A DNA stretch of 64,000 bases from NCBI GenBank assembly GCA_938008885.1, contig CALLIV010000116.1, positions 1,366 to 65,365 on the forward strand. The letters run 5' to 3'. The notes under the pieces were generated by a model. The model had not been told where the DNA came from. It saw only the letters and a list, made by a program, of their open reading frames with translations, and searched no databases. This document shows, one piece after another, positions 16,135 to 58,176 of this stretch. Position numbers and translations under genes: made by a program. The stretch is from an uncultured Rhodospirillales bacterium (GTDB lineage: Bacteria > Pseudomonadota > Alphaproteobacteria > Acetobacterales > Acetobacteraceae). How positions within the stretch are numbered: the stretch's first letter is position 1; every line of letters begins with the position of its first letter.

Positions 16135-17397
16135 ATGGATAGCCTGACCCGAGACCCGGTGGAGCTGCGTCAGCGCGCGCGCGTGCGGCGGTGGCCCATG
16201 CTGCTGCTGTGCCTGCTCGCCATCGCGGCGATCATCGGCGCGGTGTGGTTCTGGCCGTCCGGGTCCGGCGGGCCGGCCAGCCGCAACCGGGTCAGCGGCC
16301 AGCCCATCCCCGTCCTCGCCGCCCCCGCCGCAATCCGCGACATGCCCATCTTCCTCGACGGGCTCGGCACCGTGCAGGCCTTCTACACGGTCACGGTGAA
16401 ACCCATGGTCGACGGCCCGCTGCTGTCGGTGAACTTCACCGAGGGGCAGGACGTGAAGAAGGGCGACGTGCTGGCGCGCATCGACCCGCGCACCTACCAG
16501 GCCGCGCTCGACCAGGCGGTGGCCAAGAAGGCGCAGGACGAGGCGCTGCTCGCCAACGCCCGGTCCGACTATGCGCGCTACCAGAAGCTGGTGGCGAACA
16601 ACTACACCTCCGCCCAGCAGGCCGACACCGCCAAGTCCCTGGTCGCGCAATACGAGGCGCAGGTGCGCCAGGATCAGGCGCAGATCGAGACCGCGCAGAC
16701 CAACCTCAGCTACACCACCATCACCTCCCCGATCGACGGCCGGACCGGGATCCGACAGGTCGATCCGGGGAACATCGTGCATGCCTCCGACGCGACCGGC
16801 ATCGTCGTGATCACGCAGCTCCAGCCGATCTCGGTGGTGTTCACCCTGCCGCAGCAGGAGCTGCCGGCCGTCGCCAAGGCGCTGCGCGCGGGACAGCCCA
16901 AGGTGCTCGCCTATGCGGAAGGCTCGAATGGCGGCGCGGCGACGCTGCTCGACACCGGGACGCTCGCGGTGCTGGACAACCAGGTCGACTCGACCACGGG
17001 CACGATCAAGCTGAAGGCGACCTTCCCGAACCCGGACCACACGCTGTGGCCCGGCGGGTTCGTGCGCGTGCAACTCCAGGTGGACACGGCGCATGGCGCG
17101 GTGGTCGTCCCCCCCGCCGCGGTGCAGCGCGGGCCCCGCGGCCCCTACGTCTTCGTCATCGACGGCGAGACGGTGAAGCGCCAGGCGATCACCACCGGCT
17201 ACGAGGACGAGCACGCCTCGATCGTCACCAGCGGCCTGAAAGGGGGCGAGAAGCTGGTGACCGACGGCGCGTCCCGCCTGTCGGACGGCAGCAAGGTGGC
17301 CGTCGTGCCGCCCGCCGGAGCCGCCCAGGCGCCGGGACCGGACCAGGTGAGCCCGCCCGGCGCCCGCCGGCCGCGCAACGCCGGCGCACCCGGGTGA
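16135..17397 (+). CDS. mdtA: RND periplasmic adaptor, MdtA/MuxA family
   Basis: N-terminal TM; GLGTVQA, ITSPIDGRTG, DNQVDSTTGTIKLKA and LWPGGFV motifs. Confidence 0.92.
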   Translation: MDSLTRDPVELRQRARVRRWPMLLLCLLAIAAIIGAVWFWPSGSGGPASRNRVSGQPIPVLAAPAAIRDMPIFLDGLGTVQAFYTVTVKPMVDGPLLSVNFTEGQDVKKGDVLARIDPRTYQAALDQAVAKKAQDEALLANARSDYARYQKLVANNYTSAQQADTAKSLVAQYEAQVRQDQAQIETAQTNLSYTTITSPIDGRTGIRQVDPGNIVHASDATGIVVITQLQPISVVFTLPQQELPAVAKALRAGQPKVLAYAEGSNGGAATLLDTGTLAVLDNQVDSTTGTIKLKATFPNPDHTLWPGGFVRVQLQVDTAHGAVVVPPAAVQRGPRGPYVFVIDGETVKRQAITTGYEDEHASIVTSGLKGGEKLVTDGASRLSDGSKVAVVPPAGAAQAPGPDQVSPPGARRPRNAGAPG

Positions 17398-17458: not shown

Positions 17459-20400
17459 ATGAACATCTCCGCCCCGTTCATCAGCCGGCCGATCGCGACC
17501 TGGCTGCTGGCGATCGCGATCCTGCTCGCGGGCGGCCTCGGCTACCGCGCACTGCCGGTCTCGGCGCTGCCGGAAGTCGACTTCCCCACGATCCAGGTCG
17601 TGACGCAGCTTCCGGGTGCGTCGCCCGAGACGGTGGAGGTGCTGCTCACCGCGTCGCTCGAGCGCCAGTTCGGCCAGATCCCCGGCCTGCTGAACATGAC
17701 GTCGCAGAGTTCCGAGGGGACCAGCCAGATCACGCTGCAGTTCGACCTGAACCGCTCGATGGATTCGGCGGCGCAGGACGTGCAGGCGGCGATCAACGCG
17801 GCGGCGGGCACGCTGCCCGCGAACCTTCCCTATCCGCCCACCTATTCGAAGGTGAACCCGGCCGACGCGCCGATCCTGACCATCGCGCTCACCTCCGACA
17901 GCCTGCCCATCGACGTGGTCAGCGACGCGGCGGACACGCTGCTGCAGCCGAAGCTCGCGCAGATCGACGGCGTGGGCCGCGTGACCGTGCAGGGCGGCAT
18001 GCGCCCGGCGGTGCGGGTGCGGGTCGATCCCGCGCGGCTCGCCGCCTACGGGCTGTCGATGGAGGACGTGCGCACCGCCGTCTCCCAGTCCACCGTGAAC
18101 GGTGCCAAGGGCGGGTTCGACGGCCCGCGGCTCGCCTTCGCCCTCGGCGCGAACGACCAGCTCGTGGATGCGGCCGCCTACCGGAACCTGGTGATCGCCT
18201 GGCGCAACGGCGCCCCGGTGCGGCTGTCGGCCGTGGGCAGCGTGATCAGCGGGGTGGAGAACGACCGCGTCGCGGCCAGCTGGAACGGCACGCCCGCCGT
18301 GGTGCTGGACGTGCAGCGCCAGCCCGGCGCCAACATCGTGCAGACCGTACAGGCGGTGAAGGCCCAGCTCCCGGTCCTGGAGCGGGCCATGCCGTCCGGC
18401 ATCAGGCTGACCATCGCGAGCGACCGCACCGAGACGATCCGCGCCTCGGTGGCCGACGTGCAGTTCACGCTGGTGCTGGCCGTGGGACTGGTGGTGCTGG
18501 TGATCTTCGCCTTCCTCCGCTCCTGGCGCGCCACCTTCATCCCCGCCGTCGCGCTGCCGCTGTCGCTGATCGGCACGTTCGGGGTGATGCACCTGCTGGG
18601 CTACGCGCTCGACAACCTCTCGCTGATGGCGCTGACGGTCGCGACCGGCTTCGTGGTCGACGACGCGATCGTCATGATCGAGAACGTGGTCCGCTTCATC
18701 GAGGAGGGCGTCTCGCCGCTGCAGGCCGCCTATCGCGGCGCGGCGCAGATCGGCTTCACCATCGTCTCGCTCACCGTCTCGCTGATCGCGGTCTTCATCC
18801 CGCTGCTGTTCATGACGGGCGTGGTCGGGCGCCTGTTCCAGGAATTCGCGGTCACCCTGTCGGTCGCGGTGGTGGTCTCGGCCGTGGTCTCGCTGACGCT
18901 CACCCCCATGATGTGCGGCCGGTTCCTGCGGCCGGCCCGTGAAACGCCGCCCGGCCGCCTCTCGCGCTGGAGCGAGGGCGCCTTCGAGCGGCTGCTGGGC
19001 GCCTATCGCCGCTCGCTGGACTGGAGCTTCGGGCACCAGACCCTGGTGCTGGTCGTCGCGGTGCTGACCCTGGTGGGCACGGTGGTGCTCTACGTCGTGG
19101 TGCCCAAGGGCTTCCTGCCGCAGCAGGACACCGGCGTGCTGCTCGCGGTGACCGAGGCGTCCCAGAGCGTCTCCATCCCCCGGCTGGTCGAGCTGCAGGA
19201 CCAAGTTGCCGCGAAGGTGCAGGCCGACCCCGCCGTGAGCGGCGTCGTCTCCTTCGTCGGCGCCGGCACGATCAACGCCACGCCGAATGTCGGGCGCCTG
19301 ACCATCTCGCTGAAGCCGCTGCGGGAGCGGGACGGCGCGCCCGCGGTGATCGCGCGGCTGCAGGCGGCGATCGCGGGCATCCCCGGCATCACCGCGTTCT
19401 TCCAGCCGGTTCAGGACATCCAGATCGGCACGCGGGTCAGCCGCACGCAATACCAGTATACGCTGATGGACACCGATCCGGCGGAACTCGCGACCTGGGC
19501 GCCGAAGCTGCGCGCGGCGCTGGCCGCGCTGCCGGAGCTGCGCAACGTCGCCTCCGACCAGCAGAACGAGGGCTTCCGCACCTTCGTCACGGTCGACCGC
19601 GCGGCGGCGATGCGGCTGGGTGTCACGATGCAGGCGGTACAGGACGTGCTGTACGACGCGTTCGGCCAGCGCCAGATCGCCACGATCTTCGGCCAGGCCA
19701 ATCAGTACCGCGTCGTGCTGGAGGCCGATCCGTCCTGGCAGGCCGATCCCACGTCGCTGCGCCTGCTGCGCGTGCCCGGCACCGACGGCGCGCAGGTGCC
19801 GCTGACCGCGATCGCGACGCTGCACCAGGGAATCGCGCCGCTGGTCATGACGCATCAGGCGCAGTTCCCCGCCGTGACGCTGAGCTTCGACCTCGCGCCC
19901 GGCGCCTCGCTGGGCCACGCGGTGGACGCGATTGCCGCGGCCGAACGCCAGATCGGCATGCCGGACACGATCAGCGGCACCTATGCCGGCGACGCGGCGG
20001 AGTTCCAGCGCTCGCTCGCCGCCGAACCCTGGCTGATCCTGGCCGCGGTGGTGGTGATCTACATCGTGCTGGGCGTGCTGTACGAGAGCTGGATCCACCC
20101 GATCACCATCCTGTCCACGCTGCCCTCGGCCGGCATCGGGGCCCTGCTGGCGCTGATGCTGTGCGGCGCCGACCTGTCGCTGGTGGCGCTGGTCGGCATC
20201 GTGCTGCTGATGGGCATCGTGAAGAAGAACGCCATCATGATGGTGGATTTCGCGATCGAGGCGGAACGCGAAGCCGGCGCCGCCCCGCTGGCCGCGATCC
20301 GCGAGGCCTGCCTGCTGCGCTTCCGCCCGATCATGATGACGACGATGGCGGCGCTTCTCGGGGCCTTGCCGCTGGTGCTGGAGCACGGCTCCGGCTCCGA

Positions 20401-20548
20401 ACTCCGCTGGCCGCTGGGTGTCACCATCATTGGCGGGCTGCTGCTGTCGCAACTGCTGACGCTCTACACGACGCCGGCGATCTACCTGGCGTTCGAGCGC
20501 CTCCGCCTCCGCTACGGCGGCACCCCGGCCCCGGTGCCGGCGGAATGA
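17459..20548 (+). CDS. mdtB: RND transporter, MdtB/MuxB family
   Basis: FISRPIAT, GFVVDDAIVMIENV, GIVKKNAIMMVDFA and RFRPIMMTT motifs. Confidence 0.95.
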   Translation: MNISAPFISRPIATWLLAIAILLAGGLGYRALPVSALPEVDFPTIQVVTQLPGASPETVEVLLTASLERQFGQIPGLLNMTSQSSEGTSQITLQFDLNRSMDSAAQDVQAAINAAAGTLPANLPYPPTYSKVNPADAPILTIALTSDSLPIDVVSDAADTLLQPKLAQIDGVGRVTVQGGMRPAVRVRVDPARLAAYGLSMEDVRTAVSQSTVNGAKGGFDGPRLAFALGANDQLVDAAAYRNLVIAWRNGAPVRLSAVGSVISGVENDRVAASWNGTPAVVLDVQRQPGANIVQTVQAVKAQLPVLERAMPSGIRLTIASDRTETIRASVADVQFTLVLAVGLVVLVIFAFLRSWRATFIPAVALPLSLIGTFGVMHLLGYALDNLSLMALTVATGFVVDDAIVMIENVVRFIEEGVSPLQAAYRGAAQIGFTIVSLTVSLIAVFIPLLFMTGVVGRLFQEFAVTLSVAVVVSAVVSLTLTPMMCGRFLRPARETPPGRLSRWSEGAFERLLGAYRRSLDWSFGHQTLVLVVAVLTLVGTVVLYVVVPKGFLPQQDTGVLLAVTEASQSVSIPRLVELQDQVAAKVQADPAVSGVVSFVGAGTINATPNVGRLTISLKPLRERDGAPAVIARLQAAIAGIPGITAFFQPVQDIQIGTRVSRTQYQYTLMDTDPAELATWAPKLRAALAALPELRNVASDQQNEGFRTFVTVDRAAAMRLGVTMQAVQDVLYDAFGQRQIATIFGQANQYRVVLEADPSWQADPTSLRLLRVPGTDGAQVPLTAIATLHQGIAPLVMTHQAQFPAVTLSFDLAPGASLGHAVDAIAAAERQIGMPDTISGTYAGDAAEFQRSLAAEPWLILAAVVVIYIVLGVLYESWIHPITILSTLPSAGIGALLALMLCGADLSLVALVGIVLLMGIVKKNAIMMVDFAIEAEREAGAAPLAAIREACLLRFRPIMMTTMAALLGALPLVLEHGSGSELRWPLGVTIIGGLLLSQLLTLYTTPAIYLAFERLRLRYGGTPAPVPAE

Positions 20549-20841
20549 GCGGCACCGTCGCGTGGACGGCCGTGCGCGCCGTGTGGTGGCCGGCCGTGCG
20601 CCCCCTGTCGTGGGCGGTCGCGCAGGTCCCCGTGTCATGGCCGCGCGCGCCCTTCGTGTCATGGCCGGCCTTGTGCCGGCCATCCACGACTTCGCCACGT
20701 GCGGAAAGGAAAGCCGTGGATGGCCGCGACAAGCGCGGCCATGACACGAGGGCGGTCGACAAGCGCGGCCACGACACGGGGCGCGCAGGCCGCCACGACA
20801 CGGCGCGCGCAGGCCACCATGACACGGGGGGGCACCCCTGA
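20545..20841 (+). CDS. Repeat-derived 98-aa ORF bridging mdtB and mdtC (expression unproven)
   Basis: ATG 20545 overlaps the mdtB stop (ATGA); its TGA 20839-41 overlaps the mdtC ATG (TGATG); the frame is open throughout. Confidence 0.45.
   Translation: MSGTVAWTAVRAVWWPAVRPLSWAVAQVPVSWPRAPFVSWPALCRPSTTSPRAERKAVDGRDKRGHDTRAVDKRGHDTGRAGRHDTARAGHHDTGGHP
20655..20748. repeat. REP-like palindrome (GTCATGGCC...GGCCATGAC), flanked by degenerate arm duplications across 20555-20830
   Basis: cgtgtcatggccggccttgtgccggccatccacg ... cgtggatggccgcgacaagcgcggccatgacacg. Confidence 0.88.
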
Positions 20842-23800
20842 TGCCGCTCCCGAAATTCTCCGGCTTCTCCGGCATCTTCATCGCGCGGCCCGTCGCGACG
20901 ATCCTGCTCTCGATCGGCCTGCTGCTCGCGGGCGCCGTGGCCTACCGGTTCCTGCCGGTCGCGGCGTTGCCCAGCGTCGATATCCCCACCATCGTCGTGA
21001 TGGCATCACGTCCCGGCGCCGACCCCGAGACGATGGCGAACTCCATCGCGGCACCGCTCGAGCGGCGCCTCGGCGAGATCCCCGGCGTGACGGAGATCAC
21101 CTCGACCTCCTCGATCGGCAACACCTCGATTGTCATCCAGTTCGAACTCGACCGCGACATCAACGGCGCGGCGCATGACGTGCAGGCGGCGATCAACGCC
21201 GCGACGACGGACCTGCCTGGCGACCTGCCGACCAGGCCGTACTACCGGAAGTTCAACCCGGCGGACACGCCGATCCTGACGATCGCGCTCTCCTCCGACA
21301 TCCTGTCCACGGCGCAGATCTACGATGCGGCCGACACGATCCTGGCGCAGCGCCTCTCGCAGGCCGAGGGCGTGGCGCAGGTCTCGGTGAACGGCGCGGA
21401 GAAGCCGGCCGTGCGCGTCCGCCTCGATCCGCAGCGGCTCGCCGCCACCGGCCTGTCCAGCCAGGACGTGTACACCGCGCTCCGCAACGCCAACGTGCTG
21501 CAGCCGACCGGCGGGTTCCAGGGACCCGCGCGGGCCGAGACGATCGGCGTGAACGGGCAGATGTCGCAGGCCGACCAGTACGCGGGTCTCGTGCTGAAGG
21601 CGGGACCCGACACCGTGCTGCGGCTGTCGGACGTCGCGACCGTGGTCAACGCGACCTCGAACGCGCGGCTCGCCGCCTGGAACGGCAAGCAGCCGGCGAT
21701 CCTGCTCACCATCACCAAGGCGGCGGGCGCCAACGTCATCGAGACCGCCGACCACGTGCGCGCCCTGCTGCCGCAGCTCATGTCCTGGCTGCCGCCCGAC
21801 ATCAAGGTCACCGTGATCAGCGACCGCACCGCGACGATCCGCGCGAGCGTCGCGGACGTGCAATGGACGCTGCTGCTGACCGTCGTCCTGGTGCTGATGG
21901 TCGTGCTGGTGTTCATGCGCCGGCTGGTGCCGACGGTCGCGGCGGCGGTGACGGTCCCGCTGTCGATCGCCGGCACGCTCGCCGGCATGTGGTTCCTGGA
22001 CTACTCGCTCGACAATTTCTCGCTGATGGCGCTGACGATCTCGGTCGGCTTCGTGGTCGACGACGCGATCGTCATGATCGAGAACATCGTCCGCCACCAG
22101 GAGCAGGGCTACCCACCGCTGGAAGCCGCCGTGCGCGGCGCGAAGCAGATCGGCTTCACCGTGCTGTCGATCAGCATCTCGCTGGTCGCGGTGTTCATTC
22201 CGCTGATCTTCATGGGCGGCGTGATGGGGCGGCTGTTCCACGAATTCGCGATGACGCTGACGCTCGCGATCGTCGTCTCCGCCGCCGTCTCGCTTACGCT
22301 CACCCCGATGATCTGCGGCCGGTGGATGCGGCCCGAAGCGCCGCGGGAGTCGCACGGGCTGGTATGGCGCGGCATCGACCGGGCGATGCGCGGCACGCAG
22401 CGCTTCTACGCCCGCACACTCGACTGGGCCCTCGCGCACCGCGCCTTCATGCTGCTGATCACCCTGCTCACCGTGATCGTCACCGTCCGGCTCTACGGCA
22501 CCGTGCCGAAGGGGTTCCTGCCGCTGCAGGACACCGGCATCGTCATGGGCTCCACGCTCGCCGACCCCAACATCTCCTTCCAGAGCATGGTGCAGCGCCA
22601 GAAGCAGGTCGTCGACGTGCTGCTGAGCGACCCCGCGGTGGTCAGCGTCGGCTCCACCGTGGGCGTGTCCAGTGGCTGGGCGTCGCAGAACCGCGGCCAG
22701 CTCACGCTCGCGCTGAAGCCGGTGTCTGAGCGCGACGCGACGTCCGAGGAGGTGATCGCGCGCCTGCGTCCCAAGCTCGCGCGGGTCGGCGGCGTGCAGA
22801 CCTTCCTGTTCTCGGCCCAGGATCTGCGCGGCGGCGGCCGCTCCGGCGGTGCGCAATACCAGTTCGCGGTGATCGCACCCGACCTCGCGGAGCTGCGGCG
22901 CTGGGCGCTGGCGCTCGAGGAGAAGCTGAAACAGACGCAAGGCATCGTCGACGTGACGTCAGACCAGGACCGCGCCGGTCCGCAGGCGGACGTGGTGATC
23001 GACCGCGACGCGGCCGCGCGGCTGCAGGTGAGCGTCAGTGCGATCGACGCGGCGCTGAACAACGCCTTCTCGCAGCGCCAGGTCTCCACGATCTACGCGC
23101 AGCGCAACCAGTACAAGGTGGTGCTGGAGGTGGATCCGAAGCTGCAGACGGATCCGTCCATGCTCGACCGGATCTATGTCGGCGCGAGCAACGGCACGCA
23201 GGTGCCGCTGTCGGCGGTCGCGCATTTCGAGCGCGGCACGGCCCCGCTCGCGGTGCGCCACCAGGGCCAGTTCCCCGCCGCCACGCTCAGCTTCAATCTC
23301 GCGCCCGGCATGGCGCTGGGCGATGCGGAGGAAGCGGTGCAGCGGGCCGCCCTGGAGCTGCGCATGCCCGAGGACGTCCGCACCGAGTTCGCCGGCAACG
23401 CGCGATGGCTGCAGCAATCGCTGTCCAGCCAGCCCCTGCTGATCGCCGCCGCGCTGATCGCGATCTACATCGTGCTGGGCGTGCTGTACGAGAGCCTGCT
23501 GCACCCGCTGACGATCCTGAGCACCCTTCCATCCGCGGGCTTGGGCGCGCTGCTCGCGACGCTGATCACCGGCGTGGACCTGTCGATCATGAGCATCATC
23601 GGCATCATCCTGCTGATGGGCATCGTGAAGAAGAACGCGATCATGATGGTGGATTTCGCCCTGGAGGCGGAGCGGGAGCGCGGGCTGTCCGCCTTCGAGG
23701 CGATCCACGAGGCGTGTCTGGAGCGGTTCCGTCCGATCATGATGACGACGCTGGCCGCGCTGCTGGGCGCGCTGCCGCTGGCCTGCGCGTTCGGCACGGG

Positions 23801-23954
23801 CGCGGAGCTGCGCCGGCCGCTCGGGATCGCGATCGTGGGCGGCCTGATCGTCTCGCAGATGCTGACGCTCTACACGACGCCGGTGGTCTACCTGGCACTG
23901 GAACGCCTCGCCGGCCGCCGCCGCGCCATCCCGAAGCCGGCCCCGGCGGAATGA
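20841..23954 (+). CDS. mdtC: RND transporter, MdtC/MuxC family
   Basis: FIARPVAT, GFVVDDAIVMIENI, GIVKKNAIMMVDFA and ERFRPIMMTT motifs; second RND paralog of the operon. Confidence 0.95.
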   Translation: MPLPKFSGFSGIFIARPVATILLSIGLLLAGAVAYRFLPVAALPSVDIPTIVVMASRPGADPETMANSIAAPLERRLGEIPGVTEITSTSSIGNTSIVIQFELDRDINGAAHDVQAAINAATTDLPGDLPTRPYYRKFNPADTPILTIALSSDILSTAQIYDAADTILAQRLSQAEGVAQVSVNGAEKPAVRVRLDPQRLAATGLSSQDVYTALRNANVLQPTGGFQGPARAETIGVNGQMSQADQYAGLVLKAGPDTVLRLSDVATVVNATSNARLAAWNGKQPAILLTITKAAGANVIETADHVRALLPQLMSWLPPDIKVTVISDRTATIRASVADVQWTLLLTVVLVLMVVLVFMRRLVPTVAAAVTVPLSIAGTLAGMWFLDYSLDNFSLMALTISVGFVVDDAIVMIENIVRHQEQGYPPLEAAVRGAKQIGFTVLSISISLVAVFIPLIFMGGVMGRLFHEFAMTLTLAIVVSAAVSLTLTPMICGRWMRPEAPRESHGLVWRGIDRAMRGTQRFYARTLDWALAHRAFMLLITLLTVIVTVRLYGTVPKGFLPLQDTGIVMGSTLADPNISFQSMVQRQKQVVDVLLSDPAVVSVGSTVGVSSGWASQNRGQLTLALKPVSERDATSEEVIARLRPKLARVGGVQTFLFSAQDLRGGGRSGGAQYQFAVIAPDLAELRRWALALEEKLKQTQGIVDVTSDQDRAGPQADVVIDRDAAARLQVSVSAIDAALNNAFSQRQVSTIYAQRNQYKVVLEVDPKLQTDPSMLDRIYVGASNGTQVPLSAVAHFERGTAPLAVRHQGQFPAATLSFNLAPGMALGDAEEAVQRAALELRMPEDVRTEFAGNARWLQQSLSSQPLLIAAALIAIYIVLGVLYESLLHPLTILSTLPSAGLGALLATLITGVDLSIMSIIGIILLMGIVKKNAIMMVDFALEAERERGLSAFEAIHEACLERFRPIMMTTLAALLGALPLACAFGTGAELRRPLGIAIVGGLIVSQMLTLYTTPVVYLALERLAGRRRAIPKPAPAE

Positions 23955-24574: not shown

Positions 24575-26116
24575 ATGAACGGCGCCGAAAGCCTGGTCCA
24601 CACGCTGCTCAAGAGCGGCGTCGACACGTGTTTCTCCAATCCCGGCACGTCCGAAATGCACTTCGTCGCCGCGCTCGACCGGATCCCCGGCATGCGCTGC
24701 GTCCTCGGCCTGTTCGAGGGCGTGGTCACCGGCGCCGCCGACGGCTACGCGCGGATGGCCGGCAAGCCCGCCGCGACGCTGCTGCATTGCGGCCCCGGCC
24801 TCGCCAACGGCCTCGCCAACCTGCACAACGCGCGGCGCGCCCACACGCCGATCGTCAACATCGTCGGCGACCACGCGACCTATCACCGCCCGCTCGACGC
24901 CCCGCTCACCGCCGACACCGAAGGCTGGGCGCGCGGCGTCTCCGGCTGGGTGCGCACCGCGATGGACGTGAAGACGGTCGGCGCCGATGCCGCGGGCGCG
25001 GTGCAGGCTGCCATGACCTCCCCCGGCCAGATCGCGACGCTGATCCTGCCGTCCGACACGTCCTGGAACCCCGGCGGCATCGTCGCCGAGGCGCTGCCGC
25101 GCGTGCCGGCCCCGCTGTCCTCGCCCAACCAGATCGACGAAGCCGCCGCCGTCCTGCGCCGCGGCGGCGACGGCATCCTCCTGCTGCTCGGGGGCAAGGC
25201 GCTGGGCGAGGCAGGCCTTGCGCTCGCGAACCGCATCAGCGCCGCGACCGGCTGCCGCCTGATGGCCGAGGGCTCGAACGCCCGCGTCGCCCGCGGCCGC
25301 GGGCGGGTCGCGGTGGATCGCGTGCCCTACGTGGTCGACGCCGCGGTGAAGGCGCTGTCCGGCACGACGCAGCTCATCCTCGCCGGCGCGCGCAAGCCGG
25401 TCACGTTCTTCGCCTATCCGAACAAGCCGCAGACCTCGGTGCCCGAGGGGGCGGAACTGCATGTGCTCGCCCGGGTCGAGCAGGATCCGGTCGAGGCGCT
25501 CGCCCGTCTCGCCGACGCACTCGGTGTCCCCGACGCCGCCGCGCCGGATTACGGACCGGCGCCGGAGGCGGGGCGCGGCAAGCTGACGCCCGAGAGCGTC
25601 GCCGCGACCGTGGGCGCGCTGATGCCGGAAGGCGCGGTGATCGCCGACGAGTCGGTGACGTACGGCCGCGGCTTCTTCCCGCTCACCCGCAGCGCCGCGC
25701 CGCATGACTGGCTGAACGTGCTGGGCGGCGCCATCGGCGGCGGTCCGCCCATGGCGACCGGCGCGGCGCTGGGTGCGCCCGGCCGGCGCGTGATCAACCT
25801 GCAGGCCGACGGGTCCGCGATGTACACGGTGCAGGCGCTGTGGACCCAGGCGCGCGAGAAGCTCGACGTCACGACCGTCATCTTCTCGAACCGCAAGTAC
25901 CAGATCCTGCTGGGCGAGCTCGCCAACGTGGGCGCCAATCCGGGGCGCACGGCGCTCGACATGATGGACCTGGGCAATCCCGACATCGACTGGCCGAAGC
26001 TGTCCGCGTCGATGGGCGTGGAAGGCGCGACCGCCGATACCGCGGAGGGCTTCGCCGACCTCCTCGCGCATTCGCTGAAGCGGCCCGGCCCGTTCCTGAT
26101 CGAGCTGCTGGTGTAG
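24575..26116 (+). CDS. Thiamine-diphosphate-dependent enzyme (acetolactate synthase large-subunit-like)
   Basis: NPGTSEMHFV, LFEGVVTGAADGY and the ThDP-binding ADGSAMY...N motif. Confidence 0.9.
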   Translation: MNGAESLVHTLLKSGVDTCFSNPGTSEMHFVAALDRIPGMRCVLGLFEGVVTGAADGYARMAGKPAATLLHCGPGLANGLANLHNARRAHTPIVNIVGDHATYHRPLDAPLTADTEGWARGVSGWVRTAMDVKTVGADAAGAVQAAMTSPGQIATLILPSDTSWNPGGIVAEALPRVPAPLSSPNQIDEAAAVLRRGGDGILLLLGGKALGEAGLALANRISAATGCRLMAEGSNARVARGRGRVAVDRVPYVVDAAVKALSGTTQLILAGARKPVTFFAYPNKPQTSVPEGAELHVLARVEQDPVEALARLADALGVPDAAAPDYGPAPEAGRGKLTPESVAATVGALMPEGAVIADESVTYGRGFFPLTRSAAPHDWLNVLGGAIGGGPPMATGAALGAPGRRVINLQADGSAMYTVQALWTQAREKLDVTTVIFSNRKYQILLGELANVGANPGRTALDMMDLGNPDIDWPKLSASMGVEGATADTAEGFADLLAHSLKRPGPFLIELLV

Positions 26117-34035: not shown

Positions 34036-34087
34036 GGTGTCATGGCCGACGGGGCCGGGGCAGTACAGCGGGCCGGGACATGACACC
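34036..34087. repeat. Short REP-like palindrome
   Basis: ggtgtcatggcc...gggacatgacacc, with the same terminal motif as 20655. Confidence 0.7.
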
Positions 34088-57054: not shown

Positions 57055-58176
57055 TCACCACGGGACCGGCGTCCCGTCCCAGGCGAAGAACCCGCCGGTG
57101 TCCGCGGGCGTCAGCCGGTCCATCACCGCGAGCAGCGCCGCCGCCGCGCGGCCCGGCGCGAGCAGGTCCGGCACGCCCGCCTGGAAGGGCTGGCTGAGCG
57201 CCGTGTCGACCGTGCCCGGATGCAGCGCCACGCACACGCCAAGAGGCCGCGTCCGCGCATGCTCGATTGCCAGCGTGCGGATCAGCATGTTCAGCGCGGC
57301 CTTCGAGGTCCGGTAGCCGTACCAGCCGCCCAGCCGGTTGTCCCCGATGCTGCCCACCCGCGCCGACAGCGCCGCGAAGACGCTGGGCCGGTCCCGCGGC
57401 GTGAGCGGCAGCAGGTGCTTGGCGACCAGCGCCGGTCCCGCCGCATTGACCGCGAACAGCTCCGTCAGTGCCTCCACGGACAAGGCCCTCATCGCCTTCT
57501 CGGGCATCAGTCCGGTTCGGTGCAGCCGCCCGGTGGCCACCACGATCCGCTCCGGCGCGCCGATCCCGGCAATGGCCTGCGCCGCCATGGCCAGGGTGCG
57601 CTCGTCCAGGATGTCGGCCGGGAGCCAGTCGCCCGCCCATCCCTCCGGCCGTCGACGGGAGAGGGCCACCACGCGCGCGAAGCCGGGATCGGCGGTGAGC
57701 CGGTCGGCGAGGGCACGCCCGATCCCGCCCGCGGCCCCGACCACCACGGCGATCCGTGTCACGGCCGCACCGGCCAGCAGGCCGATCACCGCACCGGCCG
57801 TCAGCACCGACCGCAACCGCGGATACCACGCCGGCAGTTCGGAGGACGTGACGTCCCACACCCAGTGCAGGCCCAGCGCCACCGCGAGCCCGAGCAACTG
57901 CACCGTCCGGTCCGGCACCACCAGCACCCCCAGCCCCACAACGCTGGGCAGCATCGCCAGCGACACGGTCGACGCCGAGGGCCTGGGCGCGCCGACCGCG
58001 AACCCCCAGCGCGCCCCGCCCAGGAACGAGAGGATCAGCGCGCCGTAGAGCGCCAGCACCTGCCCCGCGAACCCGCTCCAGCCAGGCGCGAGCCACGGCG
58101 CCAGCGGCGGCGCGAGGAAAGGGATCAGGCCGGCCGCACCATAGGCCGCCACGACGAAGGGAGGCGTTCGGGTCAT
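57055..58176 (-). CDS. In-frame fusion of a DUF3429-like membrane protein and a CsgA (C-factor)-like SDR
   Basis: N-terminal half G.AGLIPF / YGALILSFLGGARWG; from GTG 57762, VVGAAGGIG, LSARVGSIGDNRLGGWYGYRTSKAALNM and LHPGTVDT. Confidence 0.8.
   Translation of the reverse strand: MTRTPPFVVAAYGAAGLIPFLAPPLAPWLAPGWSGFAGQVLALYGALILSFLGGARWGFAVGAPRPSASTVSLAMLPSVVGLGVLVVPDRTVQLLGLAVALGLHWVWDVTSSELPAWYPRLRSVLTAGAVIGLLAGAAVTRIAVVVGAAGGIGRALADRLTADPGFARVVALSRRRPEGWAGDWLPADILDERTLAMAAQAIAGIGAPERIVVATGRLHRTGLMPEKAMRALSVEALTELFAVNAAGPALVAKHLLPLTPRDRPSVFAALSARVGSIGDNRLGGWYGYRTSKAALNMLIRTLAIEHARTRPLGVCVALHPGTVDTALSQPFQAGVPDLLAPGRAAAALLAVMDRLTPADTGGFFAWDGTPVPW

What the first reader, a model, noticed from the sequence alone, without database searches (positions are those of the whole stretch)
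20545..20841. Palindromic-repeat-derived ORF bridges mdtB and mdtC, coupled at both ends
Seen: the 292-bp gap between mdtB and mdtC is a large imperfect inverted repeat, with a REP-like core at 20655-20748 and ~21-24-bp arm duplications on each side. It reads as an uninterrupted 98-codon ORF whose ATG overlaps the mdtB stop (ATGA) and whose TGA overlaps the mdtC ATG (TGATG). The peptide mirrors the palindrome: VSWP/SW repeats first, GHDT/RHDT repeats second. Known: mdtB and mdtC are usually adjacent and form a heteromeric pump; palindromic elements can be translated (Rickettsia RPEs), and REP hairpins affect translation and mRNA stability. Inference: selection may have kept a ribosome bridge through the inserted hairpin to preserve MdtB:MdtC coupling, or a de novo gene is arising from a repeat. 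High GC makes open frames likelier by chance, but the two exact overlaps are harder to dismiss.
Basis: partly seen in the sequence, partly recalled or inferred. Interest (0 to 1): 0.72.

Follow-up and report, generated by a model that had tools for sequence, protein, structure and literature searches.

The report
Repeat-built relay ORF bridging mdtB and mdtC
A hairpin-forming DNA repeat has landed between two efflux-pump genes, and the open reading frame running through it most likely passes ribosomes from the first gene to the second; every comparable insert I could check in this group of bacteria keeps the same arrangement.

Summary
The 292-nt mdtB-mdtC spacer is a giant imperfect hairpin (-224 kcal/mol, z -8.6). 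A 98-codon ORF (20545-20841) runs through it, with ATGA at its start and TGATG at its end.

The spacer is one copy of a genome-wide REPIN-like repeat family: 388 exact cores, about 109 hairpin cores of ~96 nt, and no RAYT found. The peptide has no homologues, no confident fold and weak coding composition, so it is not a protein gene.

Taken alone, the ORF looked like chance. Four of six frames are open, and the ATG follows from the conserved Glu-GAA plus TGA end of mdtB.

Comparison reversed that view. I examined 12 repeat-type inserts at gene junctions that overlap in insert-free relatives: mdtB/C twice, sufC/D, and three ABC-transporter pairs, in five genomes. All 12 spacers are 1 mod 3. Eleven carry a stop-free ORF overlapping both neighbours. 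Homologous inserts differ by 3, 21 and 78 nt.

This supports a two-step termination-reinitiation relay kept by selection. Translation itself was not tested.

The closest precedent is the mycobacterial MIRU. Earlier scan notes report repeat-built mdtB-mdtC spacers on other DNA.

The parts
17459..20548 (+). mdtB-like RND permease gene, ending ...PVPAE-TGA
   Evidence: ORF list. NCBIfam best hit is MdtB/MuxB at 1344 bits, and it passes the RND_permease_2 subfamily cut-off. GC at codon position 3 is 0.95.
20545..20548 (+). ATGA: relay start codon ATG overlapping the mdtB stop TGA. The same GAATGA serves as the mdtC start in insert-free relatives.
   Evidence: Sequence. Junctions of G008, G011 and G012 read GAATGAAC..., with that ATG as the mdtC start.
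20545..20841 (+). 98-codon relay ORF (P0001), proposed to be translated only to carry ribosomes to mdtC
   Evidence: Translation. No homologues. GC at the three codon positions is 0.70/0.66/0.86. pLDDT 57. The same architecture occurs at 11 other inserts.
20555..20827 (.). Composite palindromic repeat of 273 nt. Left arm: five units starting at 20555, 20579, 20603, 20630 and 20654. Right arm: mirror units ending at 20747, 20777, 20801 and 20825. All unit spacings are 24, 27 or 30 nt.
   Evidence: the repeat finder families D1-D4 and I1-I8. Own-genome BLAST gave 95 matching segments on both strands, at roughly 45-50 loci. Unit census.
20651..20752 (.). REPIN-like core hairpin, equivalent to the ~96-nt canonical element of the family
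   Evidence: I2 arms are 86% complementary. A consensus of 109 genomic copies folds at -112 kcal/mol.
20547..20554 (+). GAGCGGCA, the left foot of the closing stem; it pairs with 20842-20849
   Evidence: MFE structure. An 8-bp flank stem is not rare: about 7% of mismatched flank pairs have one.
20826..20838 (+). G7-CA-C4 run: the only Shine-Dalgarno-like stretch before mdtC, folded into a mini-hairpin
   Evidence: Sequence and MFE structure.
20839..20843 (+). TGATG: relay stop TGA overlapping the mdtC start ATG. The ATG lies in the closing stem (20842-20849, TGCCGCTC).
   Evidence: Sequence. It is the only start codon in frame after TGA 20820.
20841..23954 (+). mdtC-like RND permease gene with a rebuilt N-terminus. 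MPLPKFS (20841-20861) is added before the conserved GFSxIFIARPV. There is a 9-nt tandem duplication TTCTCCGGC at 20856-20864 and 20865-20873.
   Evidence: ORF list. Comparison with 24 relatives, which begin M(N)GFSAIF. The NCBIfam MdtC alignment starts at residue 9.

Best explanation
The spacer is a copy of a dispersed REPIN-like palindromic repeat, and the ORF through it works as a translational relay, not as a protein gene. The proposed steps are these. (1) A ribosome finishing mdtB at TGA 20546-48 restarts at the overlapping ATG 20545. This is the same GAATGA termination-reinitiation context that starts mdtC in insert-free relatives. (2) The ribosome translates 98 meaningless codons and in doing so melts the -224 kcal/mol hairpin. 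(3) It stops at TGA 20839-41 and restarts at the overlapping mdtC ATG 20841. That ATG and its weak G-run ribosome-binding site are otherwise buried in the stem. (4) Inserts that land in overlapping junctions between genes for subunits of one complex persist only if they keep this stop-free, in-phase chain. Shown here: the anatomy, the repeat family, the ancestral overlaps, and the phase and openness rule across 12 inserts. Inferred: that the ORF is translated, that reinitiation occurs at both ends, and that selection rather than insertion geometry explains the rule.
For: 1. The anatomy is exact: ATGA at one end, TGATG at the other, 98 open codons. The mdtC start and its only SD-like run are paired in the predicted structure, and no promoter-like or terminator-like site lies in the spacer.
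2. Insert-free relatives join mdtB and mdtC by ATGA, GTGA or TGATG (11 of 24 congeners; 16 of 37 wider loci at -4 or -1).
3. The same genome has two more relay ORFs built from the family, at sufC/sufD and between two ABC permease genes. Both junctions overlap in relatives, and in both the relay frame is the only open sense frame.
4. An independent test in G017 found two more, permease to ATPase and ATPase to FtsX permease. None was found at the nine gaps joining unrelated or separately initiated genes.
5. At the orthologous junctions in other species, G018, G001, G023 and G000 carry inserts of 130-610 nt that keep perfect relay ORFs. Some of these inserts belong to a different repeat family. 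Homologous inserts differ by 21, 78 and 3 nt. In the 610-nt insert the relay frame has no stop, while the other sense frames have 7 and 5.
6. A distant proteobacterial MAG (L120) has a 160-nt repeat insert between mdtB and mdtC with the same ATGA...ATGA relay.
7. Overall, all 12 spacers are 1 mod 3 and 11 of 12 are perfect. Among the 7 not found through the property itself, 6 are perfect and all 7 are in phase.
8. Published work shows that -4 and -1 overlaps are needed for reinitiation coupling and are enriched in heteromeric complexes (PMC10666635, PMC6728339). MIRUs are a precedent (PMC12548453, PMC3184786).
Against: At this locus the insert is known from one population only (contigs 99.99-100% identical), so conservation cannot be tested here. 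In this particular insert four of six frames are open, including the mdtB frame, so openness carries little weight. Doubly overlapped ORFs arise by chance at about 4% of co-directional gaps, and one bridges unrelated genes in G001 (L215). In 13 of 24 congeners, including the closest ones, mdtB and mdtC are separated by real genes, some on the opposite strand, so coupling of this pump is dispensable in the genus. A stable structure right after a stop codon is reported to insulate against reinitiation rather than promote it (PMC7518266). The statistics are partly post hoc, rest on small numbers, and use a crude gene caller.
Confidence: 0.65

Rival explanations
1. Incidental by-product. A stop-poor, 75% G+C repeat landed between an inherited ATGA (Glu-GAA plus TGA) and an inherited CCTGATG. 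The frame happens to match and nobody reads it. MdtC is made by independent initiation at ATG 20841.
For: Four of six frames are open. The frame is open from 20161. The base rate of such ORFs is 4-9%. A chance-type case bridges unrelated genes (L215). GAATGA occurs at the mdtB stop in other insert-bearing species without a relay (G006, G020, G021). Unit spacings that are all multiples of 3 occur in 18 of 61 arrays. The insert is young and confined to one lineage.
Against: This does not explain why all 12 inserts at ancestrally overlapping junctions are 1 mod 3 and 11 are open in exactly that frame. Nor does it explain why homologous inserts differ only by multiples of 3, or why a 610-nt insert has no stop in that frame against 7 and 5 in the others. 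The mdtC start has no canonical SD and is paired in the fold.
Confidence: 0.25
2. The RNA structure is what matters, not the ORF. The hairpin brings the mdtB stop and the mdtC start to the two feet of one stem, so a terminating ribosome frees the mdtC ATG and transfers to it directly. Alternatively, the hairpin acts like other intercistronic REP elements, as an exonuclease barrier or translational insulator that sets the MdtB:MdtC ratio.
For: The closing stem GAGCGGCA/TGCCGCTC puts the stop and the start side by side. The family lies mostly downstream of genes (40 convergent against 10 divergent contexts), as REPs do. The ribosome-termination-structure literature applies (PMC7518266).
Against: An 8-bp flank stem occurs in about 7% of random flank pairs. 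A structure-only model predicts no constraint on spacer length mod 3 and none on stops in one frame, yet both are seen. Non-palindromic inserts and inserts of other families obey the same rule.
Confidence: 0.07
3. The ORF encodes a real small protein, either a de novo gene or a pump accessory.
For: Gene callers predict it on 7 contigs. In four congeners a genuine ~130-aa membrane protein gene sits at this same position.
Against: There are no homologues, no family hit and no confident fold. The sequence is simply the repeat read in one phase, and other sites read the repeat in other phases. It bears no similarity to the congeners' 130-aa protein.
Confidence: 0.03

Closest known systems
Mycobacterial interspersed repetitive units (MIRUs; Supply et al. 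1997, as summarised in PMC12548453 section 11 and PMC3184786 section 9)
   Same: A dispersed repeat sitting in the spacer between genes of one operon. It carries an ORF whose ends overlap the flanking genes (-4 spacing). Tetranucleotide direct repeats flank filled sites. The arrangement is thought to let the element insert with little effect on expression of the downstream gene.
   Different: MIRUs are 40-100-bp direct tandem units of actinobacteria with the ORF built into each unit. Here the element is an inverted-repeat hairpin (REPIN-like) of an alphaproteobacterium, read in different phases at different sites. A second unrelated repeat family and a 610-nt insert obey the same rule, which points to a filter at the site rather than a design of the element. 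Sequence relatedness to MIRUs was not tested.
REP / BIME / REPIN elements of Enterobacteria and Pseudomonas
   Same: G+C-rich imperfect palindromes in hundreds of copies, mostly extragenic and downstream of genes, paired in inverted orientation into long hairpins.
   Different: No RAYT (Y1 transposase) was found in this 98%-complete genome. The Y1 genes of relatives are IS200-like and not flanked by the family. The arms are lengthened by tandem partial units of 16-36 nt. Here the element is inferred to be translated.
Termination-reinitiation coupling of overlapping gene pairs (Huber et al., PMC6728339 and PMC10666635)
   Same: ATGA and TGATG overlaps. Coupling is lost at spacers of about 20 nt. 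The overlaps are enriched between genes for subunits of heteromeric complexes, which is exactly the class of junctions where relay ORFs are found here.
   Different: Here coupling would run in two steps, through a spacer ORF of 22-205 meaningless codons instead of a direct overlap.
Bicistronic-design leader ORFs of synthetic biology, and natural ribosome-delivering short ORFs (PMC12548453; bioRxiv 10.1101/2023.02.09.527918)
   Same: A throw-away ORF ending in an overlap with the target start. It uses the helicase activity of the translating ribosome to open structure around the start codon.
   Different: This one is natural, derived from a repeat, and itself started by reinitiation from an upstream gene rather than by its own strong ribosome-binding site.
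Rickettsia palindromic elements (RPE); in-frame repeat inserts in mdtB/mdtC noted earlier in this scan
   Same: Palindromic repeats that are tolerated because they stay translatable.
   Different: RPEs sit inside a gene and become part of its protein. Here the repeat lies between genes as a separate ORF in a third frame.

Membership tests
MIRU-type intercistronic repeat with coupled ORF | Member of a dispersed repeat family | tested here: met
   95 BLAST matching segments (both strands, roughly 45-50 loci) in the own genome. 388 exact cores against 1.3 expected.
MIRU-type intercistronic repeat with coupled ORF | Lies between co-oriented genes of one operon, with an ORF whose start and stop overlap those of the neighbours | tested here: met
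   ATGA at 20545-48 and TGATG at 20839-43. The same holds at 10 further inserts.
MIRU-type intercistronic repeat with coupled ORF | Tetranucleotide direct repeat flanking the filled site | tested here: inconclusive
   The ABC permease site has ATGA(G/A)G on both sides. At mdtB/mdtC and sufC/sufD the downstream N-terminus is rebuilt, so no clean duplication is visible. A possible GGCACC repeat at 20551-56 and 20831-36 is unproven.
MIRU-type intercistronic repeat with coupled ORF | Direct tandem units of 40-100 bp, each with its own ORF; actinobacterial sequence family | tested here: not met
   The architecture is an inverted repeat with 24-30-nt partial units. The organism is an Acetobacteraceae member. 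So it works like a MIRU but is not a member of that family.
REP/REPIN-RAYT system | Short G+C-rich imperfect palindromes, hundreds of copies, mainly extragenic, paired as inverted doublets | tested here: met
   109 doublet cores of about 96 nt. 123 composite clusters, mostly intergenic.
REP/REPIN-RAYT system | A cognate RAYT (Y1 transposase) gene flanked by the repeats | tested here: not met
   PF01797 finds nothing in G000. Hits in G001, G018 and G013 are IS200-like and lack flanking units.
Termination-reinitiation coupled gene pair | -4 or -1 overlap of stop and start | tested here: met
   Both ends of the ORF.
Termination-reinitiation coupled gene pair | Downstream translation depends on upstream translation | not testable with these tools
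MdtABC / MuxABC paired RND pump | Adaptor gene followed by two different RND permease genes that score as MdtB and MdtC | tested here: inconclusive
   The best NCBIfam hits are MdtA/MuxA (374 bits, cut-off 391), MdtB/MuxB (1344, cut-off 1584) and MdtC (1224, cut-off 1774). All are below the equivalog cut-offs. MdtB passes the RND_permease_2 subfamily cut-off. The gene order fits.
Rickettsia palindromic element (RPE)-type coding insert | Repeat inserted in frame inside a protein-coding gene and translated as part of that protein | tested here: not met
   The ORF is in a third frame, separated by stops from both mdtB and mdtC.

The most novel reading that the evidence does not exclude
A general rule of operon evolution. 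DNA that lands in a -4/-1 overlapping junction between genes for subunits of one complex is retained only if it forms a stop-free ORF in the one phase (spacer = 1 mod 3) that chains two termination-reinitiation events. Selfish repeats of several unrelated families, and even a 600-nt insert, would thus be turned into translational bridges. This may also shape the repeats themselves: their array periods are enriched for multiples of 3, and their right arms are always read in the same phase. MIRUs would then be one special case of a widespread phenomenon.
Probability: 0.5. Interest if true: 0.75.

Novelty: new variant of a known kind. Interest (0 to 1): 0.62.

Why it matters
If the relay is real, it shows how tightly coupled operons for pumps, ABC transporters and Fe-S assembly tolerate invasion by hairpin repeats. 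It gives a simple sequence signature: spacer 1 mod 3, NTGA at one end, and ATGA or TGATG at the other. That signature lets annotators tell relay ORFs apart from hypothetical proteins. It extends the MIRU idea from mycobacterial tandem repeats to palindromic repeats of Proteobacteria. It also offers a natural counterpart of the bicistronic-design cassettes used in synthetic biology. Finally, it makes a long-standing question directly testable with one reporter construct: can ribosomes carry coupling across hundreds of structured nucleotides?

Tried and rejected
1. Rfam scan of the spacer found only sub-threshold hairpin look-alikes.
2. The promoter and terminator scan found nothing.
3. Homologue search for the peptide found only itself. 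Its seven contigs are the same population, and one (L128) is a chimeric assembly, so no conservation test is possible at this locus.
4. Pfam and NCBIfam on the peptide gave nothing. AlphaFold gave pLDDT 57, so no fold search was run.
5. A RAYT search, to file the family as a REP/RAYT system, was negative.
6. I considered that the 8-bp closing stem is part of the element or is significant. I rejected this: flank complementarity is 8.3% observed against 6.8% in controls.
7. I considered that all unit spacings being multiples of 3 proves coding constraint at this locus. I rejected this as proof: 18 of 61 arrays share the property.
8. I looked for the right-flank sequence CCCCTGATGCCGCTCCCGAAATTCTCC elsewhere in the genome, in case it came from a donor site. 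It is unique.
9. My first reading, 'pure chance', rested on base rates. I abandoned it after the comparative results.
10. I tested a fixed insertion geometry as a non-selective cause of the phase rule. I rejected it: the distances from the repeat units to both overlaps vary from 12 to 86 nt, and other repeat families obey the rule.
11. Several candidate tight junctions turned out not to be conserved gene pairs, or had ancestral spacers of 15-50 nt.

Full report
THE OBSERVATION. The window carries an MdtABC-like operon: adaptor gene 16135-17397, mdtB-like gene 17459-20548 and mdtC-like gene 20841-23954. ATG 20545 overlaps the mdtB stop (ATGA). Then come 98 open codons. TGA 20839 overlaps the mdtC ATG (TGATG). 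The spacer is a nested imperfect palindrome. Its core hairpin is 20651-20752, and its arms are built from 24-30-nt units. It folds at -223.9 kcal/mol, z = -8.6.

WHAT THE SPACER IS. It is one copy of a dispersed repeat family.
- The spacer gives 95 matching segments on both strands, at roughly 45-50 loci, in its own 5.58-Mb, 70% G+C genome.
- The core GTGTCATGGCCG occurs 388 times against 1.3 expected.
- The canonical element is a hairpin of about 96 nt made of two inverted REP-like units. There are 109 copies, and the consensus folds at -112 kcal/mol.
- Many copies have arms lengthened by tandem partial units with a locally uniform period of 16-36 nt.
- Copies are mostly intergenic and favour convergent gene ends: 40 convergent, 47 co-directional, 10 divergent.
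- The family is abundant only in this species and a few congeners: G017 156, G018 148, G001 137 exact cores.
- No Y1/RAYT transposase is detectable in this genome. The Y1 genes of relatives are IS200-like and unlinked to the repeat.
- The organism belongs to the Acetobacteraceae.

WHY THE ORF AT FIRST LOOKED LIKE CHANCE.
- Four of six frames across the spacer lack internal stops, including the mdtB frame.
- The relay frame is open from 20161.
- Its codon-position G+C (0.70/0.66/0.86) is not that of the genome's genes (0.68/0.50/0.91).
- The peptide has no homologue among 5.8 billion proteins, no family hit and no confident fold.
- The ATGA is inherited. mdtB ends ...Ala-Glu-stop, so GAA+TGA gives ATGA in many congeners, and in insert-free ones that ATG is the mdtC start. 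CCTGATG is the junction of other insert-free congeners.
- Doubly overlapped bridging ORFs occur in 15 of 369 repeat-free and 3 of 32 repeat-bearing co-directional gaps.
- The insert exists in only one population, whose contigs are 99.99-100% identical.
- In 13 of the 24 same-genus species searched (12 measured; G013 is split across contigs) the mdtB-mdtC junction holds 350-1600 nt of other DNA. Four species have a real ~130-aa membrane protein gene there. Seven have a small lipoprotein gene on the opposite strand.

WHAT CHANGED MY READING.
- The three repeat-derived doubly overlapped ORFs of this genome all lie between genes for subunits of one complex: mdtB/mdtC, sufC/sufD and two ABC permease genes.
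- sufC/sufD and the permease pair overlap (GTGA or ATGA) in every insert-free relative checked, so the inserts are specific to this lineage. In both, the relay frame is the only open sense frame.
- A fourth insert in a tight junction (C96, with a 4-nt ancestral spacer) has no relay, but its downstream gene has a strong GAGAGGAGG ribosome-binding site.
- Other candidates were not conserved gene pairs or had ancestral spacers of 15-50 nt.

INDEPENDENT TEST IN OTHER GENOMES.
- I fetched 33 family clusters of G017. Of 11 co-directional gaps, two had perfect relay ORFs: ABC permease to ATPase, and ABC ATPase to FtsX permease. The other nine joined unrelated genes or genes with their own ribosome-binding site, and none had a relay.
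- In 40 family sites of G001, one such ORF bridges unrelated genes (aminotransferase to chrA). This shows that chance cases exist.

THE DECISIVE COMPARISON: THE ORTHOLOGOUS JUNCTIONS OF THE TWO G017 CASES.
- Both junctions overlap in five or more insert-free congeners.
- Permease/ATPase pair: G017 (202 nt) and G018 (223 nt, homologous insert at 83% identity) both keep a perfect GTGA...ATGA relay. G000 carries an independent 259-nt insert of a different repeat family, again with a perfect ATGA...ATGA relay.
- ATPase/FtsX pair: G017 (208), G018 (130), G001 (205) and G023 (610 nt) all have perfect relays. In G023 the relay frame has no stop, while the other sense frames have 7 and 5.
- G000 has a 76-nt spacer at that pair. 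Its relay ORF ends 11 nt before a new in-frame ATG.
- Homologous inserts differ by 21, 78 and 3 nt.
- Among 37 wider mdtB-mdtC loci, 16 overlap by 4 or 1 nt. The one repeat-type insert among them (160 nt, distant proteobacterial MAG, locus L120) again has an ATGA...ATGA relay.

OVERALL COUNT.
- All 12 spacers are 1 mod 3, which is the only phase that links an NTG overlapping the upstream stop to a TGA overlapping the downstream ATG. Eleven of the 12 are stop-free in that frame.
- Seven of the 12 were not found through the property itself. Six of those are perfect and all seven are in phase.
- A neutral insert should succeed in about one case in seven to ten: 1/3 for phase, times 0.3-0.5 for openness.
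- The distances between the repeat units and the overlaps vary from 12 to 86 nt, and the left arm is read in different phases at different sites. A fixed insertion geometry therefore does not explain the rule.

MECHANISM. Reinitiation after termination needs a -4 or -1 overlap and is almost lost at spacers of 20 nt. Such overlaps are enriched between genes of heteromeric complexes (PMC10666635, PMC6728339). A 292-nt hairpin would break that coupling and bury the mdtC start, whose only SD-like element is a G-run folded into the stem. A throw-away ORF that starts at the old reinitiation site and ends on the new start would restore the chain. It would also use the ribosome's helicase activity to open the structure. 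Engineered bicistronic designs and ribosome-delivering short ORFs work in this way (PMC12548453). These steps are inferred. No transcript, footprint or peptide data could be obtained. A stable structure just after a stop codon has been reported to insulate against reinitiation (PMC7518266), which argues the other way.

COMPARISON WITH WHAT IS KNOWN. The closest precedent is the mycobacterial MIRU. It is a dispersed repeat in operon spacers whose ORF overlaps both neighbours, with 4-nt direct repeats at filled sites. It is thought to insert with minimal effect on expression (Supply et al. 1997, as summarised in PMC12548453 and PMC3184786). The present element works like a MIRU but is not one. 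It is a palindromic REPIN-like hairpin of an alphaproteobacterium, it is read in varying phases, and unrelated inserts obey the same rule. It resembles REP/REPIN elements in form but lacks a detectable RAYT. It is not an RPE-type in-gene insert. Earlier notes of this scan (unchecked) describe repeat-built mdtB-mdtC spacers of 181 and 127 nt in other genomes. Both lengths are 1 mod 3.

VERDICT. The bridge reading is supported indirectly but consistently, with confidence 0.65 for this locus. The de novo protein reading is not supported. This is a new variant of a known kind, and it is of real interest because it yields a simple, testable rule.

Noticed in passing
G000 contig C61:3109-3319 (locus L137:1410-1620, minus strand): A family repeat of 211 nt lies between sufC and sufD with a 72-codon relay ORF (GTGA...ATGA). 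The sufD N-terminus is rebuilt: MTAALPS+GAAGFL against MST+GAAGFL in relatives. All relatives checked have sufC and sufD overlapping.
   Followed up: yes
G000 contig C101:19488-19644 (locus L144:301-457, minus strand): A family repeat of 157 nt lies between two ABC permease genes with a 54-codon relay ORF. ATGA(G/A)G is present on both sides, like a target-site duplication of the ancestral GTGA junction.
   Followed up: yes
G000 contigs C114:~24899-25157 and C84:~94729-94804: A second, unrelated repeat family (CCCTCTCCCCTCGCGGGAGAGGGCCGGGGTGAGGGGG type) fills two ABC-transporter junctions. At one it forms a perfect 88-codon relay ORF. At the other it forms a 22-codon relay ending 11 nt before a new start codon. 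The same type of repeat forms the relay in locus L120:2832-2991.
   Followed up: partly
Loci L023:2030-2419, L028:2103-2513, L029:2017-2424, L032 (G004, G006, G021, G014): A conserved gene of about 130 aa lies between mdtB and mdtC on the same strand in four congeners. It has an N-terminal membrane helix and a C-terminal ...VTDIRVRGETYNP...GGWFC.RP.D.GG..RVN, with G+C at codon position 3 of 0.72-0.78. It ends 3-33 nt before mdtC. It has no Pfam hit and is a candidate pump accessory protein.
   Followed up: partly
Loci L041:1617-1856, L042:1916-2167, L016:2199-2432, L044, L019, L022 (minus strand; G001, G017, G005, G023, G002, G022; a weak copy in G018): A small lipoprotein-like gene (lipobox LAAC, then HQEGPAE.AG.SLD.AGQKVQD...GRK.DRALG) sits on the opposite strand 11-87 nt upstream of mdtC. 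A conserved GGTTGC-N~10-GGTAACG motif lies between it and mdtC. It has no Pfam hit. In these species mdtC must have its own promoter.
   Followed up: partly
Whole genome G000: The periods of the family's tandem partial units are enriched for multiples of 3. Peaks are at 18, 21, 24, 27, 30, 33 and 36 nt, covering about half of 304 spacings. Most arrays lie between convergent genes, so this is unexplained.
   Followed up: partly
Locus L215 (G001:C1:1261500-1265000), 553-nt gap: A 185-codon ORF with non-coding composition (G+C 0.70/0.63/0.69 at the three codon positions) runs exactly from a GTGA at an aminotransferase stop to a TGATG at the chrA start. The two genes are functionally unrelated.
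   Followed up: partly
Locus L245 (G023:C80:41900-43220): A 610-nt, 60% G+C insert lies between the ABC ATPase and FtsX permease genes. Its 205-codon relay frame has no stop, while the other two sense frames have 7 and 5. It could be an extreme relay or an unrecognised gene.
   Followed up: no
Locus L128 (ENA contig k141_46718), corresponding to window positions before about 20031: This metagenome contig is identical to the window downstream of about 20036. Upstream it is out of register with the window (about 66% mismatches), most likely a chimeric join with a paralogous RND gene.
   Followed up: partly
window 34037-34048 and 57756-57767: Two further single units of the repeat core lie in the window (one exact, one with one mismatch). 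The first lies just upstream of the sRNA candidate noted by another finding of this scan.
   Followed up: no
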